Shown: positions 53,298 through 57,466 of the stretch, in pieces
How positions within the stretch are numbered: the stretch's first letter is position 1
Layout of the letters: each line of letters begins with the position of its first letter
Virus record (IMG/VR): IMGVR_UViG_2931714059_000002
Span: 16,218-80,217 of that record
Source: a virus
Lineage: Duplodnaviria > Caudoviricetes
Length of the DNA: 64,000 bases
Direction: 5' to 3' (one strand)
Program-made: the position numbers and the translations under genes
The notes under the pieces: generated by a model
What the model was told of the DNA's origin: nothing
The model's input: the letters and a program-made list of their open reading frames with translations, nothing else
The model's database searches: none

Positions 53298-53759
53298 CTA
53301 CAGCTCGCGGAGGTGCGCCAGGGCCGCCTCCGCGTTGTCGATGGCCATTCCGACTGCGGTCCAGACCGACTCGGAGAAGCTCACATCGTCAGTTCGATCC
53401 GGAGCCACGACCATCGCGGGCGGCGTCCGGACGGTGCGGAGCATCTGGCCGTTCATGACCCACTCGGATCCGCCTCGCGGCAGCGGGTCCGGTCCGGGAA
53501 TCCGGTACTCCGCCCACGCGGTCAGCTGCCGGTGGAGCGCCGGACTGTCGGGCCGGCCCCGGTCGAGGTGATCTGGGTCGCCGATACGCACGTGGACCTC
53601 GGGGCCGCCTCTGCCCGCGCGGAATCGCAGGGTGGGGTCGCCGATCTGGACCGCGATCTCGCCGGGCACACCGCCGAGGGCCATGGGGTGTACCTGGCGC
53701 AGCTTGGGCCATTGCGCGCGGACGGCTGCACCCGGGGCGGCATTGGTCTCGCGACTCAT
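53298..53759 (-). CDS. Hypothetical protein
   Basis: AAGGAG/GAGAAG upstream; last gene of the minus-strand block. Confidence 0.65.
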   Translation of the reverse strand: MSRETNAAPGAAVRAQWPKLRQVHPMALGGVPGEIAVQIGDPTLRFRAGRGGPEVHVRIGDPDHLDRGRPDSPALHRQLTAWAEYRIPGPDPLPRGGSEWVMNGQMLRTVRTPPAMVVAPDRTDDVSFSESVWTAVGMAIDNAEAALAHLREL

Positions 53760-53858
53760 GGTCTTCTCATCTCCTTCATCTCCGTGGTGCGCCTTTCTCG
53801 GCGTGGCCCCGCCACGTGCGTAATGGGGGCGGGTTGAGTTGCTACTTCTATCGACTGG

Positions 53859-54119
53859 TCAGTACCCGGTCCGCAACCTCTCGGCGTCCGCACGGACACG
53901 CTCCGTGCGGTCCACCCACTCACCGGGCGGGACTTTGCCGCGCGCGTCGTACTCCGCCATCGCCCGGCCGCGCTCCACGGCGGCCACGGTGTCCGTAGCG
54001 ATGCGCCGCCAGCGCTCCACGACGGCCGGCACCTCGGCGAGCGGCGCCCCATCCAGTGCGGCGGCGAAGCGCGGGGCCGCCGGGCCCAGAGCGGCACGGA
54101 TCTGAGCGATGGTCTCCAT
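53859..54119 (-). CDS. Small DUF6247-like helical protein
   Basis: GAGGAG RBS; IRAAL..RF..V..RWR. Confidence 0.65.
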   Translation of the reverse strand: METIAQIRAALGPAAPRFAAALDGAPLAEVPAVVERWRRIATDTVAAVERGRAMAEYDARGKVPPGEWVDRTERVRADAERLRTGY

Positions 54120-54130
54120 GTACTTCTCCT

Positions 54131-55069
54131 CTATCCGATGGGGGCCAGCAGCCTGCGCGGCCGGTGCGGGACGTGCTCCAGCAACCCGGCGGTCTCCAAC
54201 TCGCCGAGGGCCTGGCGCACGACGGTGCGAGGCTGCTGGAGCGCGCCGGCGAGCGCGGTCTCGGTCGGCAGATAGTCACCGGGCCGCAGACCTGCCCGCG
54301 CGATGTGCGCGCGGACTTCCTCAAGCACCTTCTCCTGCTCTCCGCTCGCTGCCCGGTCACGCACCCGCCAGCCCCGACCGGACTTGACGATCAGGAACTG
54401 CTCGGCGAGGAGTTCCAGCGCCCCCAGGATCGTGCTGCGGGAAGCGGCGTGACGGGTCATCAGCACGCTGACCGCTGGGAGGCGCACCGTGCCCTCGCCG
54501 CTCTGCACGGCGGCCCAGATATCCGCGGCGACCTGGCGGCGAGTGCGGCGGTCGCGGCCCGCCGCCCGGTCTGCCGTCCGGCGTCCCCCGTGGGCGGCCC
54601 GGCAGTCCGGGCACCGGCACTTCGCGTGGCGGTAGGTGTCCTCGCTGCCGTGCGGCAGGTCGGGATCACGGCCGGCCGTGAGCGCGTCGTCCAGCCGCTG
54701 GGACCACCCGGGGAGGTACAGATCGAGGCTGTGGAGCCGGGCGGTGGTGACGCCGTACTGCTGACACACCTCCGACAGCGGGACCCCGGCGGCGAGGTCG
54801 CCCAGCAGGCTCTCCCGGACATGCGCGGGCAGCCGCTCCAGGGCGGCGGTACGGCGGCGCGCGGACTCAGCAGTCCGGCGCAGGGACTCGCAGTGCCCGC
54901 ACCGGGACTTTTCGGCCGTCGTCATGCGGTAGCACTGCTGGCAACGGCGTTGCTCGCCGGGCCGGATACCAGCGGCAGCCAGGCGGGCGCACACGGAGCA
55001 GGGGCCGCTCCCGCCCCGCCAGGATTGGCATCGGCGACAGCGCCACGCAGGCGGGCGGGCAGCAGACAC
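54131..55069 (-). CDS. Zinc-ribbon + HTH + tandem GntR-type wHTH protein
   Basis: GAGGAG RBS before GTG 55069; four CxxC; PHG..Y..CRCPDC; two wHTH (LPAVS..SRSTI; LPTE..VVRQAL.ELE..G). Confidence 0.75.
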   Translation of the reverse strand: MSAARPPAWRCRRCQSWRGGSGPCSVCARLAAAGIRPGEQRRCQQCYRMTTAEKSRCGHCESLRRTAESARRRTAALERLPAHVRESLLGDLAAGVPLSEVCQQYGVTTARLHSLDLYLPGWSQRLDDALTAGRDPDLPHGSEDTYRHAKCRCPDCRAAHGGRRTADRAAGRDRRTRRQVAADIWAAVQSGEGTVRLPAVSVLMTRHAASRSTILGALELLAEQFLIVKSGRGWRVRDRAASGEQEKVLEEVRAHIARAGLRPGDYLPTETALAGALQQPRTVVRQALGELETAGLLEHVPHRPRRLLAPIG

Positions 55070-55097
55070 ACGTCTCCTCACAGTCACGGCGATGAAG

Positions 55098-55237
55098 GGG
55101 ACACCCCCGCGCGGGCGGGGAGCAGCGGCCGTGCCGCGCGACAAAAACGGGCCAACCCCGCACACGCGGGGAGCAGCGAGGTAGCGCCATCAGCGCTGCG
55201 CTCGGAACTGGATCAACCCCGCCTGTGCGGGGACCAG
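55098..55237 (-). CRISPR. Cas-less mini CRISPR array: three type I-E-like 28-nt repeats (55210-55237, 55149-55176, 55098-55125), spacers 33 and 23 nt
   Basis: Minus strand: CTGGTCCCCGCACAGGCGGGGTTGATCC / CTGCTCCCCGCGTGTGCGGGGTTGGCCC / CTGCTCCCCGCCCGCGCGGGGGTGTCCC; CCCCGC-N4-GCGGGG stem; 61-nt period. Confidence 0.85.
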
Positions 55238-55288
55238 ATAGTGTCCGACCGTAGCGCACCGGACCCAGTGCTGTCATGAGGACTGGTG

Positions 55289-56047
55289 TCAGCTTCTCGG
55301 AGCGACTGCGCGCCCCGGGCGCGGGCGGCCCGCGTGCGCAGCCTGCACCTGATCCGCCGCGTAACGCCCTTGTCCGCCACGGCCGGGCTCCCGATCCACC
55401 GGCAGCAGCCCCCAGCGGGAGAGCTGGCGGCGCGCGGACCCCGCCGCAATGGCCGCCGTGCCCCCGTAGCCGAGGTACTCCGCCACGCGACTGACCCTCC
55501 ACAGCTCGACCGGCCGCGCGGCGTAGGCGTCCAGGGAGGCGGGGCGCCACTGCGGCCGGCCCGCAACGTACCGGTCCGGCTCGGGCAAGTGCCCCGTGCC
55601 GCGCAGCGTGTCCCACCCAGCCGGGTCCATGGGTGCTCCGCGGCTGCTCAGGTAGCGGGGCACATCACGCCGGTCCAGGTGCGCGTCGGCAGCGGCCGCC
55701 GCGAAGGACGGCACGGGCTGAAAGGGACTGGACCCGATCACGCGCCAGTCGGGCGGGATCTTCGTCGCCTCGTACTCCAGGTGTTCGACCGGGGTGACGG
55801 TGGAGTCCGCTGGGTAGCGAGCCCAGCCGCGCCACGGCCGACGCTCGGGCTGCTCCGCCCGCTCAGGCGTGTACCACTGCTCCCAGTCCGGGACCCGGTC
55901 CCGCAGCGGAGCCTCGGACTCCACCCAGATATCCAGGGATCCCTGGGCCAGAGCCTCGGCCAGCGCTCGGGCACGGGGAGTGAGGTCGTCGAGGTTGACG
56001 GTGTCGGGGGCTCCGCCTTCGCGGAGGTGGATGGTCACGGTGGTCAC
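55289..56047 (-). CDS. Protein with two MerR/AlpA-like HTH domains (candidate operon autorepressor)
   Basis: LDRRDV..YL..G.LPEPD..GRPQW; LWRVSRVAEYLG..RRQLSRWG..RY. Confidence 0.7.
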   Translation of the reverse strand: MTTVTIHLREGGAPDTVNLDDLTPRARALAEALAQGSLDIWVESEAPLRDRVPDWEQWYTPERAEQPERRPWRGWARYPADSTVTPVEHLEYEATKIPPDWRVIGSSPFQPVPSFAAAAADAHLDRRDVPRYLSSRGAPMDPAGWDTLRGTGHLPEPDRYVAGRPQWRPASLDAYAARPVELWRVSRVAEYLGYGGTAAIAAGSARRQLSRWGLLPVDREPGRGGQGRYAADQVQAAHAGRPRPGRAVAPRS

Positions 56048-56077
56048 GTCATGTCCATTCTGTCGTGGCTGCCGCGG

Positions 56078-56494
56078 TCACATGTAGCGGGGATTGAGGT
56101 ACTCGTCCTCATCGCGCTGGGCGCGGGCTTCTGCCTCCATCGCCTGGATACGGCTTTCAGCCTCGGCCTGGTAGATGTACTCCCGGAGGCGTGGGGCGCC
56201 CTCCAGGCGCTCCGTGTCCAGGAGGTAGACCGCGCAGGGAACGCCCGGGTAGTCCCGGTGCCCGTCGGGGAGTTCACGGTCGAGCCCGATGGTCTCCATG
56301 GTGATGCCGTAGTCGCCGTAGGTCTGGCGGGAGTGCCCGAGGTAGACGCGTTCGCCCTCGTACTTGCCCGTGAGGGTGACCTGCTGTCCGGCTTCGTAGG
56401 CGGACTTGAGGACGGCGGCAGCGCCAACGACGCCGACGTGGCCCCGGACTTGGCGAGTGTGGCTGGTCAGGGTGATGGGGGGCAGCTCGGTCAT
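56078..56494 (-). CDS. Small acidic hypothetical protein (first gene of the array operon)
   Basis: AGGAG RBS, ATG 56494. Confidence 0.75.
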   Translation of the reverse strand: MTELPPITLTSHTRQVRGHVGVVGAAAVLKSAYEAGQQVTLTGKYEGERVYLGHSRQTYGDYGITMETIGLDRELPDGHRDYPGVPCAVYLLDTERLEGAPRLREYIYQAEAESRIQAMEAEARAQRDEDEYLNPRYM

Positions 56495-56569
56495 GCGGTT
56501 CTCCTGTCCGATCACGAAAACGGTGGGCGAGAGAGGTACCAGGCACGGATATCTCGCTCGCCATCCCCA

Positions 56570-56592
56570 TTATGCCTCACGGTGAGGCGTAA
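56570..56592. promoter_or_regulatory. Palindromic operator in the divergent promoter region
   Basis: TTATGCCTCAC-G-GTGAGGCGTAA; TTGACA about 10 nt to the right. Confidence 0.65.
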
Positions 56593-56713
56593 GGTCGCGC
56601 ATTGACACCCCGCAATAACCACCAACTTCCTCACTGTTTCGCCACTTGAGATACATGGCGGTAAGCCACCTGATGTGATGAAGCCGCCAACCCCCGATCA
56701 AGAGGAGAACACG

Positions 56714-57466
56714 ATGACGCAGAGCGCGGAGCCGACCACCGCAACAACTGCCGTGACGGTGGGGGTTGCACAGCGACCCGGCACGGAGTCAACCGGCCCG
56801 GCCGGCGAGGACCTCTGTGCGGACGGCGCGCACGTCCACCAGCGAGGAGACCGGGTGACCGCGGCCGTCGTCGACGGCGCCGGCCACCGCACTGAGGTCG
56901 TGGACCTCGCCCGCCACGCGCCCCCGATGATCGCGCTCATGGGCATGTCCATGGGCGGGCTCGTCGGGCTGACCACCGCCGGACGGATGGCCGACGCCTA
57001 CGACCACCCGCCGCACATGTCCGCCGTCTACGCCTCCATGGAGCCCGGCGAGGACACCGGCGTGCACTGGATCGGCGACTGCCGGGCCTACGGATGGGAC
57101 GGGGAGGAGCTGACGCTGTGGTCCACCGACCAGACCATGGGCGAATGGCTCGCGTGGAACGGCGGCAAGACCATCGAAGTCGTTCCCCGCGAGGTCGCGG
57201 AGACGCAGGATAATTGGGCGAGGCTCGGCCTCGCGCAGGCCACCGAGCTGACGTGCCGTCAGCTCCAGATCCCCAAGGAGATCCCGCTTGTCCTGCTCGT
57301 CTCGGACGGGGTGAGCGACCACGTCCCGGACCTGGCCGCCATCATCCGCGAGCACGAGGACGACGCGCAGGCCCTCGCGGACGCCCTCGTCGCCGCAGCC
57401 GAGGACGACGAGGAGGGGTACCGCGACGACGCGACGGTGGTCGTGCTGCTGCGCAACGACGGGTGA
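56714..57466 (+). CDS. PP2C/PPM-family Ser/Thr phosphatase (copy 2)
   Basis: GAGGAG RBS; CADG, VVDGAG, WIGDCRAY, LVSDG, DDATVV. Confidence 0.85.
   Translation: MTQSAEPTTATTAVTVGVAQRPGTESTGPAGEDLCADGAHVHQRGDRVTAAVVDGAGHRTEVVDLARHAPPMIALMGMSMGGLVGLTTAGRMADAYDHPPHMSAVYASMEPGEDTGVHWIGDCRAYGWDGEELTLWSTDQTMGEWLAWNGGKTIEVVPREVAETQDNWARLGLAQATELTCRQLQIPKEIPLVLLVSDGVSDHVPDLAAIIREHEDDAQALADALVAAAEDDEEGYRDDATVVVLLRNDG

What the first reader, a model, noticed from the sequence alone, without database searches (positions are those of the whole stretch)
55098..55237. Cas-less type I-E mini CRISPR array inside a prophage, with one normal and one short spacer
Seen: three 28-nt repeats on the minus strand. 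All keep the CCCCGC-N4-GCGGGG stem, while the loops (ACAG, GTGT, CCGC) and flanks differ. Spacers read on the minus strand are AGTTCCGAGCGCAGCGCTGATGGCGCTACCTCG (33 nt, 61-nt period) and GTTTTTGTCGCGCGGCACGGCCG (23 nt). There is no cas gene and no AT-rich leader in the window. Established: this is the stem and period of type I-E repeats, which Cas6e cuts and which are common in Streptomyces. Phage-borne repeat units are known as RNA anti-CRISPRs (Racr) and as mini-arrays that borrow host Cascade. Inference: a conserved stem with variable loops suggests selection for Cas6e processing rather than decay. The 33-nt guide could target a competitor element. The 23-nt guide could form a shortened, non-cutting Cascade acting as a decoy or repressor.
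Basis: partly seen in the sequence, partly recalled or inferred. Interest (0 to 1): 0.92.

Follow-up and report, generated by a model that had tools for sequence, protein, structure and literature searches.

The report
Prophage-borne mimic of CRISPR array
A Streptomyces-type prophage with no cas genes carries three good copies of the host-type (I-E) CRISPR repeat with one normal and one short guide. It most likely borrows or jams the host's CRISPR proteins, a phage trick described only recently, but neither guide has a known target.

Summary
Three type I-E repeat units lie on the minus strand at 55097-55237. With 29-nt repeats the spacers are 32 and 22 nt. A covariance model built from 39 Streptomyces host repeats scores the units at 31.7-35.5 bits. 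The next best hit in the window is 13.3 bits. The stem motif occurs nowhere else in the 80-kb provirus, which has no cas genes.

All 12 stem positions are invariant, while 9 of 17 other positions vary (Fisher p=0.003). The invariant flank positions are mostly those conserved in host repeats.

A rare promoter-like motif sits directly upstream. No terminator follows, so transcription should run into a Zn-ribbon/GntR regulator gene.

Related Streptomyces prophages and many high-GC viral contigs carry similar cas-less arrays, mostly with 20-21-nt spacers. One copies a guide encoded beside its host's own cas genes. This fits the viral "Cracr array" class (Liu et al., bioRxiv 2024/2026).

For this array no target or host twin was found for either spacer, and the host's own cas locus was not available. 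I therefore file it as a probable new member of a known kind with its mechanism unresolved. This scan has already noted the same kind of array on other Streptomyces prophages.

The parts
55248..55277 (-). Promoter-like element. The -35 ATGACA is at 55277..55272, followed by an 18-nt spacer and the -10 TACGGT at 55253..55248. The predicted start is about 55241, 3-4 nt before R1.
   Evidence: only 3 such motifs (at least 5 of 6 TTGACA, 16-18 nt, TAnnnT) occur on both strands of the 80,217-bp contig, and this is one of them. The stricter E. coli-type scan found none in 53500-56800. Function is inferred.
55209..55237 (-). Repeat unit R1 (loop ACAG)
   Evidence: Covariance model 31.9 bits, E 1.9e-6, full length.
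55177..55208 (-). Spacer S1, 32 nt, the canonical I-E length
   Evidence: No match found.
55148..55176 (-). Repeat unit R2 (loop GTGT)
   Evidence: Covariance model 35.5 bits, E 2e-7.
55126..55147 (-). Spacer S2, 22 nt, starting with TTTTTG
   Evidence: No twin or target above chance. One 19/22 hit in a viral terminase-like frame is probably chance.
55097..55125 (-). Repeat unit R3 (loop CCGC)
   Evidence: Covariance model 31.7 bits, E 2.3e-6. One mismatch outside the loop from two host consensus repeats.
55067..55096 (-). Unstructured link from R3 to the next gene. It holds GAGGAG (55079..55074) and an in-frame GTG (55069..55067), and no terminator.
   Evidence: Sequence. The 70-nt tail folds at -18.9 kcal/mol, weaker than 50 of 58 comparator arrays.
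54131..55069 (-). Downstream gene, with a Cys-rich N-terminal part and GntR-type HTH domains. The start is uncertain (GTG 55069 or ATG 54925).
   Evidence: Pfam GntR, E 2e-17, two stretches. The only database entry is the 264-aa form. Codon-position GC of 55087..54926 is not coding-like. Two CxxC pairs and the GAGGAG box favour the longer form.
55289..56047 (-). Upstream gene, 252 aa, phage family of unknown function. It served as the anchor for finding related prophages.
   Evidence: phrog_34233, E 5.7e-48. No Pfam or PDB match. Homologues.

Best explanation
This is a phage-encoded imitation of a host type I-E CRISPR array, that is, a crRNA-like counter-defence RNA cassette of the Cracr-array kind.

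Proposed mechanism:
- It is transcribed from its own promoter-like element, and possibly also from the operon upstream.
- In a host with a I-E system, Cas6e would cut after each conserved hairpin. That would release one 32-nt-guide RNA and one 22-nt-guide RNA carrying host-like handles.
- These RNAs would load into host Cascade in place of the host's own crRNAs.
- The short guide would give a shortened complex that binds but does not recruit cutting, so it would act as a repressor or decoy.
- The net effect would be weaker host I-E immunity against this phage.

Shown: the repeat identity, orientation, conservation pattern, genomic setting, and recurrence in related prophages, including one clear copy of a host guide.

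Inferred: transcription, Cas6e processing, Cascade loading, and any target.
For: - Repeat identity: a model from 39 host I-E repeats scores the three units at 31.7-35.5 bits on the minus strand, and the next best hit is 13.3 bits.
- Conservation: 0 of 12 stem positions vary against 9 of 17 others, p=0.0033. The invariant flank positions include T2, T5, T23, G24, C27 and C28, which are also conserved in host repeats.
- Setting: the units lie in a non-coding gap of a complete provirus without cas genes.
- Promoter: the promoter-like motif is 1 of only 3 on both strands of the 80-kb contig and sits 10 nt upstream of R1.
- Host system is common: Cse1 is present in 62 of 151 sampled Streptomyces genomes, and Cas6e in 3 of 5 genomes that carry related prophages.
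- Recurrence in prophages: 7 of 12 genomic loci around homologues of the upstream gene hold such units (19 units in 136 kb). That compares with 0 units in 20 unrelated Streptomyces loci (60 kb).
- Recurrence in viral contigs: 54 I-E-like arrays were found in 52 viral loci. Their spacers are mostly 20 nt (37) and 21 nt (20), and 32 nt (14) is the next most common length.
- A copied host guide: in genome G002 the related prophage carries a 23/24 copy of the short guide encoded beside the host's own cas genes.
- Published precedent: viral Cracr arrays, including I-E arrays with 21-24-nt guides, have been described (bioRxiv 10.1101/2024.10.29.618823, sections 7 and 8 read). Racr RNAs inhibiting I-E have also been described (PMC10651486, passages read).
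Against: - Neither spacer has a twin or a target. Against 46 Streptomyces I-E cas loci (893 kb) the best matches are 22/32 and 17/22, the level of shuffled controls, with no excess of seed hits.
- Against 216 spacers of viral and prophage arrays, neither does better than shuffles.
- S2 with up to 3 mismatches hits 33 of 401 genomes. By my reading of the table the reversed control gives a similar number. None of the 20 loci fetched has a repeat unit nearby.
- S1 is found in 0 of 251 genomes.
- Nothing was found in viral contigs, phage records or plasmids. Metagenome hits are unrelated coding DNA.
- A 22-nt spacer was not seen among the spacers of the 54 comparator arrays.
- The natural host's cas locus could not be examined.
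- No close relative carrying the same array was found. 5 of 12 genomic loci and 2 of 3 viral loci with the anchor gene have no unit.
- The absence of a terminator and the read-through into a regulator gene suggest the hairpins may also serve that gene.
- The fold of the region is not unusually stable (z = -1.28).
Confidence: 0.5

Rival explanations
1. Competitor-targeting mini-array. The 32-nt spacer is a true interference guide that directs the lysogen's Cascade-Cas3 against another phage or plasmid, giving superinfection exclusion. The short unit would be incidental.
For: S1 has exactly the canonical 32-nt length, with a 61-nt period and intact repeats on both sides. The array lies in the lysogeny-side region, on the strand opposite the structural genes. 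32-nt spacers recur in comparator viral arrays, 14.
Against: No protospacer was found in any of these:
- the contig itself;
- 50,697 phage records;
- 72,556 plasmids, best E 0.06-3;
- 2.9 million viral contigs, exact with every sixth base free;
- 251 Streptomyces genomes at up to 3 further mismatches;
- 2.09 Mb of fetched loci.
These collections are samples, so absence is not shown.
Confidence: 0.15
2. Spacer-independent decoy or Cas6e-responsive leader. The hairpins act only as Cas6e/Cascade binding sites (Racr-like). Because they form the 5' leader of the Zn-ribbon/GntR regulator mRNA, cutting at R3 would couple that gene's expression to the host's CRISPR status.
For: The spacers are orphans (see above). 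The array starts 3-4 nt after the predicted transcription start and ends 18 nt before the GAGGAG box of the next gene, with no terminator. The tail folds at -18.9 kcal/mol against a median of -29.9 in 58 comparator arrays, 50 of which fold more strongly.
Against: Published Racrs are solitary units, and the finder used in that paper excludes clustered ones (PMC10651486, methods passage). The exact 32-nt spacing of S1 is not needed for a decoy. No expression data exist.
Confidence: 0.17
3. No CRISPR-related function. The units are a captured, decaying fragment of a host array, or generic GC-rich hairpins (RNA stabilisers or attenuators), or operator palindromes for the neighbouring HTH proteins.
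For: No target was found, the host cas status is unknown, and the same array is not conserved elsewhere. The palindromic cores could bind a dimeric protein, and both neighbouring genes encode DNA-binding-type proteins. The 5' half of a possible fourth unit at 55065 (18/29 to R3, in phase) would fit decay at the far end.
Against: Free decay should also hit the stems, yet 0 of 12 stem positions vary against 9 of 17 others. The asymmetric flanks match host CRISPR repeats, and the model strongly prefers the minus strand (31.7-35.5 bits) over the palindromic core on the plus strand (9.1-19.8 bits). An operator would not need those flanks. The same device recurs in many unrelated prophage positions. 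The putative fourth and fifth units are not recovered by the model, and 18/29 matches are common in this DNA (about 90 per strand).
Confidence: 0.15

Closest known systems
Cracr arrays: viral crRNA-like regulatory anti-CRISPR RNAs (Liu et al., bioRxiv 10.1101/2024.10.29.618823; abstract and sections 7-8 read)
   Same: Both are cas-less arrays on a prophage with repeat-like units that diverge from each other but resemble host I-E repeats. Both have two guides, one of them short; the published I-E examples have 24- and 21-nt guides. That paper reports 20 I-E arrays with two or three guides, with hosts that include Actinomycetota.
   Different: Membership there rests on a spacer match to a host CreR/CreA guide or cas promoter, and none was found here. 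One guide here is full length (32 nt). This array has no terminator and runs into a regulator gene. I could not see that paper's Table S2 (supplements closed), so I cannot say whether this or a related prophage is already listed.
Racr, RNA anti-CRISPRs encoded as solitary repeat units (Camara-Wilpert et al. 2023, PMC10651486; abstract and passages read)
   Same: Both are phage-encoded mimics of host CRISPR repeats in non-coding DNA. I-E examples (RacrIE1, RacrIE2) were shown to inhibit a I-E system.
   Different: Racrs are solitary units without guides. Here three units are spaced like an array, and that paper's finder sets such clusters aside.
Host CreR/CreA mini-arrays inside CRISPR-Cas loci (bioRxiv 10.1101/2023.03.10.532045; search listing and start of abstract only)
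   Same: Both are degenerate mini-arrays with short guides that make Cascade act as a repressor. I saw candidate host examples in Streptomyces cas loci L021, L173, L185 and L201.
   Different: Those lie within cas loci and match nearby promoters. This one lies in a prophage and has no known match.
Virus-borne mini-CRISPR arrays used in conflicts between viruses
   Same: Both are cas-less arrays of one or two spacers on a virus that rely on host Cas proteins.
   Different: Those spacers match related viruses. No such match was found for S1 or S2.

Membership tests
Type I-E CRISPR repeat (Streptomyces class) | 29-nt unit with a 6-bp GC stem, a 4-nt loop and conserved flanks, in one orientation | tested here: met
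   A covariance model from 39 host consensus repeats gives 35.5, 31.9 and 31.7 bits over the full length on the minus strand. The units are 1-3 mismatches outside the loop from host consensus repeats.
Type I-E CRISPR repeat (Streptomyces class) | 61-nt period (32-nt spacer) | tested here: met
   R1 to R2 is 61 nt. R2 to R3 is 51 nt, which is not canonical.
Bona fide CRISPR-Cas locus | Adjacent cas genes, identical repeats and a long leader | tested here: not met
   There are no cas genes in the 80-kb record. The three repeats all differ. Only 51 nt separate the upstream gene's stop codon from R1.
Cracr array | Located on a virus or plasmid, outside any CRISPR-Cas locus | tested here: met
   Provirus with terminase, portal, head and tape-measure genes.
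Cracr array | Repeat-like units resembling host CRISPR repeats, and guides shorter than canonical | tested here: met
   S2 is 22 nt and S1 is 32 nt, so only one of the two guides is short.
Cracr array | [quoted passage not shown] | tested here: inconclusive
   Nothing above shuffled controls was found in 46 cas loci, 216 viral guides or 401 genomes. The natural host's cas locus was not available, and the genomes searched are a sample.
Cracr array | Cas-dependent processing and inhibition of immunity | not testable with these tools
   Needs RNA and infection experiments.
Racr (solitary repeat unit) | A single repeat mimic, not clustered with others within 100 bp | tested here: not met
   There are three units within 141 nt. 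The criterion comes from the methods passage of PMC10651486.
Virus-borne targeting mini-array | The spacer matches another mobile element | tested here: not met
   No protospacer was found in the collections searched. Absence from samples does not prove there is no target.

The most novel reading that the evidence does not exclude
The array is a Cas6e-responsive 5' leader. The regulator operon (the Zn-ribbon/GntR gene and the small genes after it) can only be transcribed through the three hairpins. In a host with I-E proteins, cutting at R3 would leave an mRNA whose first bases are a Cascade handle followed by the gene's own ribosome-binding site and start codon. The prophage would then read the host's CRISPR status and adjust a regulatory decision accordingly, for example lysogeny maintenance or counter-defence expression.
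Probability: 0.1. Interest if true: 0.8.

Novelty: new member of a known kind. Interest (0 to 1): 0.4.

Why it matters
If the cassette works as proposed, it adds a Streptomyces prophage to the recently described phages that disarm CRISPR with RNA instead of protein. Two features are of interest:
- Its guides do not belong to the guide families seen in other Streptomyces phage arrays, so they may point to an unrecognised regulatory target in some I-E hosts.
- It is fused to the leader of a regulator gene.

For strain engineering and phage work in Streptomyces, such cassettes may explain why native I-E systems often appear silent in lysogens.

The general principle is already in print, and this scan has met it repeatedly, so the value is that of one more documented example plus one testable twist.

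Tried and rejected
Rfam. No family matched at gathering score in the window. With a permissive threshold on 54900-55400 there were only two chance-level hits. No tRNA was found.

E. coli-type promoter and terminator scan. It found no promoter. The single terminator-like site is the 3' half of R2 plus the T-run of S2. I do not read it as a terminator, because it competes with the much stronger repeat hairpin.

Fold of the array RNA. z = -1.28. The minimum-energy fold cross-pairs the identical stems, so it is not informative.

Closer relatives.
- The downstream protein has no relative other than itself among 8000 scored candidates. It also has none in viral contigs.
- The upstream protein's relatives are at most 54% identical.
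- I therefore could not test whether this particular array is conserved.

Fourth and fifth degenerate repeats (55065, 55001). A 14/15 match in phase looked promising. But matches of 18/29 or better occur about 90 times per strand in the contig, and the covariance model does not find these units. I rejected them as unsupported.

Neighbouring genes as an anti-CRISPR operon. The 145-aa and 252-aa proteins have no Pfam or PDB sequence match. I did not pursue this further.

S2 hit of 19/22 with a perfect first 12 nt in viral contig L034. It lies inside a long open frame that I read by eye as terminase-like (not tested). The 5' flank is ACC. From the genome-wide rate the expectation is about 0.02 in the 4.2 Mb scanned. 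I treat it as chance.

Sequencing runs. No RNA holder is listed. There is one DNA run, possibly the source itself. I did not use read laying: cas loci of different Streptomyces species align at only about 70%, so laying that run on a foreign cas locus could not show whether the host has a I-E system.

Papers. A search for Streptomyces + prophage + mini-array + type I-E found 0 papers. A search for CreR / crRNA-like / Streptomyces listed none that holds both Streptomyces and CreR or crRNA-like with CRISPR as its main subject. 'Streptomyces' does not occur in the main text of the Cracr preprint or of the Racr paper.

Full report
WHAT IS THERE

Read on the minus strand, the gap between two co-directional genes holds three units of 29 nt. 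The genes are a 252-aa gene ending at 55289 and a GntR-type regulator gene beginning at 55069 or 54925. The units are R1 (55237..55209), R2 (55176..55148) and R3 (55125..55097).

Each unit has a 5-nt flank (CTGGT or CTGCT), then CCCCGC, a 4-nt loop, GCGGGG and an 8-nt tail. With this unit length the spacers are 32 nt (S1) and 22 nt (S2).

The stem motif occurs three times in the whole 80,217-bp record, and all three are here.

The record has 71.6% G+C. It is a provirus rated complete, with terminase, portal, major head and tape-measure genes. It has no Cas6e or Cse1 and no hit to any of 623 frames taken from seven cas-locus stretches.

ARE THEY I-E REPEATS?

I collected I-E loci from Streptomyces genomes. 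Cse1 is present in 62 of 151 sampled genomes. I fetched 40 of these loci, plus three around Cas6e hits in the hosts of related prophages.

The array consensus repeats are mostly of the CTGCT/GTGGT ... ATGGTCCC class. A covariance model built from 39 distinct consensus repeats finds exactly R2, R1 and R3 in the 64-kb window. The hits cover the full model length on the minus strand, at 35.5, 31.9 and 31.7 bits. The next best hit is 13.3 bits. The plus-strand hits on the palindromic cores score 9.1-19.8 bits.

Outside the loop, R3, R2 and R1 are 1, 2 and 3 mismatches from a host consensus. Plasmid BLAST hits to the region come from the repeats of true arrays on 120 Streptomyces plasmids.

CONSTRAINT OR DECAY?

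Among the three units, none of the 12 stem positions varies, while 9 of the 17 other positions do (Fisher p=0.0033). The invariant flank positions (T2, T5, T23, G24, C27, C28) are also conserved across host repeats. This is what selection for recognition by the host's repeat-binding proteins would give. Free decay of a captured array would not.

A possible fourth and fifth unit further downstream did not survive testing.

EXPRESSION SIGNALS

A motif ATGACA-18 nt-TACGGT lies at 55277..55248, 10 nt before R1. Only three motifs of this quality exist on both strands of the 80-kb contig, so its position is unlikely to be chance.

After R3 there is no terminator. The 70-nt tail folds at -18.9 kcal/mol. 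The median is -29.9 in 58 comparable arrays, and 50 of them fold more strongly. Eighteen bases after R3 come GAGGAG and an in-frame GTG of the next gene.

The start of that gene is uncertain. The only database entry uses ATG 54925, and the upstream extension lacks coding-type base composition. However, the extension would add two CxxC pairs. Either way, the regulator gene has to be transcribed through the array.

RELATIVES

Homologues of the upstream 252-aa gene (40-54% identity) mark prophage regions in Streptomyces and Kitasatospora genomes and in three viral contigs.

Seven of the 12 genomic loci hold I-E-type units, 19 in 136 kb. Twenty unrelated Streptomyces loci (60 kb) hold none. Five of the 12 genomic loci and two of the three viral loci have no unit, so the device is frequent but not fixed.

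A scan of viral contigs for two such stems at a short distance gave 98 stretches. Among them are 54 arrays in 52 loci with I-E-type orientation. Their spacers are mostly 20 nt (37) and 21 nt (20). The next most common length is 32 nt (14), and none is 22 nt. The scan itself selected for one short spacer per locus. The rest of the 98 are a different, inverted-pair element.

In genome G002 the host's cas locus ends in a mini-array with a 32-nt and a 21-nt spacer. The related prophage in the same genome carries a 23/24 copy of the short one behind a repeat unit. That is the signature by which viral Cracr RNAs were defined.

LITERATURE

Camara-Wilpert et al. 2023 (PMC10651486, abstract and passages) describe solitary repeat mimics (Racr), including two that inhibit a I-E system.

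Liu et al. (bioRxiv 10.1101/2024.10.29.618823, version of 2026-07-28; abstract and sections 7 and 8) describe viral crRNA-like RNAs that copy host regulatory guides. These compete for Cas proteins and make the effector repress cas or toxin genes. They report 30 arrays, 20 of them I-E, with hosts that include Actinomycetota. Their tested Salmonella prophage array has 24- and 21-nt guides.

'Streptomyces' does not occur in either main text. The supplements were closed.

THE WEAK POINT: THE GUIDES OF THIS ARRAY ARE ORPHANS

- S1 and S2 have no other match in the contig.
- They have none better than shuffled controls among 216 guides of viral and prophage arrays.
- They have none in 46 cas loci totalling 893 kb.
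- S2 with up to three mismatches occurs in 33 of 401 Streptomyces genomes. By my reading of the table the reversed control gives a similar number. None of the 20 loci fetched has a repeat unit nearby.
- A search for a repeat followed by the start of S2 found only ordinary array spacers and an unrelated conserved element.
- S1, with every sixth base free and up to three more mismatches, occurs in 0 of 251 genomes.
- Viral contigs, phage records and plasmids gave nothing significant.
- The 17 metagenome hits to S2 are coding DNA of lower-GC organisms without repeat units.
- One 19/22 hit in a viral contig is probably chance.

The lysogen's own cas locus could not be reached, because the record is only the provirus.

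VERDICT

The array is a host-type I-E repeat mimic under constraint, on a prophage without cas genes, in a phage group where such arrays are common and where at least one demonstrably copies a host guide.

The most likely function is counter-defence through the host's own Cas6e and Cascade, in the manner of Cracr arrays. I put this at about 0.5. The defining spacer match is missing, so the alternatives stay open: targeting of a competitor by S1, a spacer-independent decoy or Cas6e-responsive leader of the regulator gene, or no CRISPR-related function.

Earlier notes of this scan describe the same kind of array in other Streptomyces prophages, and one of them has the same leader layout. I reached the Cracr reading from my own calls before seeing those notes. 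They are not independent evidence.

It is a new member of a known kind. Interest is moderate.

Noticed in passing
L021:15700-15830 (minus) and L005 (minus strand, around the unit CTGCTCCCCGCCCGTGCGGGG): In genome G002 the I-E cas locus ends in a three-unit mini-array with a 32-nt and a 21-nt spacer. A prophage elsewhere in the same genome carries a 23/24 copy of the short spacer behind its own repeat unit. No target of that spacer was found within 38 kb of the cas locus.
   Followed up: partly
L178:911, L181:9240, L183:8554; viral loci L033, L055, L060, L072, L087, L103, L119: Many viral arrays share a 20-nt guide family (AGYCTCAGGGGCGTG...). Reverse-oriented solitary repeat units in three host cas loci adjoin a similar sequence. 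This suggests a conserved host regulatory guide that phages copy.
   Followed up: partly
Nine Cse1 rows in 8 Streptomyces genomes (G074, G007, G108, G154, G077, G145, G040, G079, G020): The Cse1 matches lie inside open frames of 1452-1680 aa. These may be cas3-cse1 fusion genes.
   Followed up: no
About 35 of 401 Streptomyces genomes, e.g. G070:C9:222872-222905: A nearly identical 34-nt element, CCCCGCGCTGGTGGGGGATCAACGTCTTCGTCGC, recurs once per genome in many species. It is unexplained and not I-E like.
   Followed up: no
Viral loci such as L032, L034, L043, L093, L104: These hold inverted pairs of a longer GC-rich hairpin (GTCGCCCCCGCGAAGGCGGGGGCCGC and its complement) about 50 nt apart. 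This is a different repeated element that shares the CCCCGC/GCGGGG core by coincidence.
   Followed up: no
L098:520-682: A viral array with four identical repeats and three identical 20-nt spacers, that is, a tandem triplication of one unit.
   Followed up: no
L074 and L112 (G+C 0.35-0.37): Low-GC viral contigs also carry I-E-type arrays that mix 32-nt with 20-26-nt spacers, so the mixed layout is not confined to actinobacterial phages.
   Followed up: no
window 54926-55087 (minus): The start of the GntR-type gene is ambiguous. The upstream extension has non-coding-like codon-position G+C (0.69/0.78/0.74 against 0.77/0.56/0.89 in the core). Yet it would add CRRC-11-CSVC and would complete CQQC-10-CGHC, and GAGGAG precedes GTG 55069.
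   Followed up: partly
L034:3162-3183: S2 matches 19 of 22 bases, with the first 12 perfect, inside a long open frame of a viral contig that looks terminase-like by eye. The 5' flank is ACC. Probably chance.
   Followed up: partly
window 56078-56515 and 53298-54119 (minus): Small orphan genes flank the array operon. The 145-aa protein has no Pfam, PHROG or PDB match. An 86-aa protein has a weak DUF6247 hit (E 0.0022, below the cut-off).
   Followed up: partly
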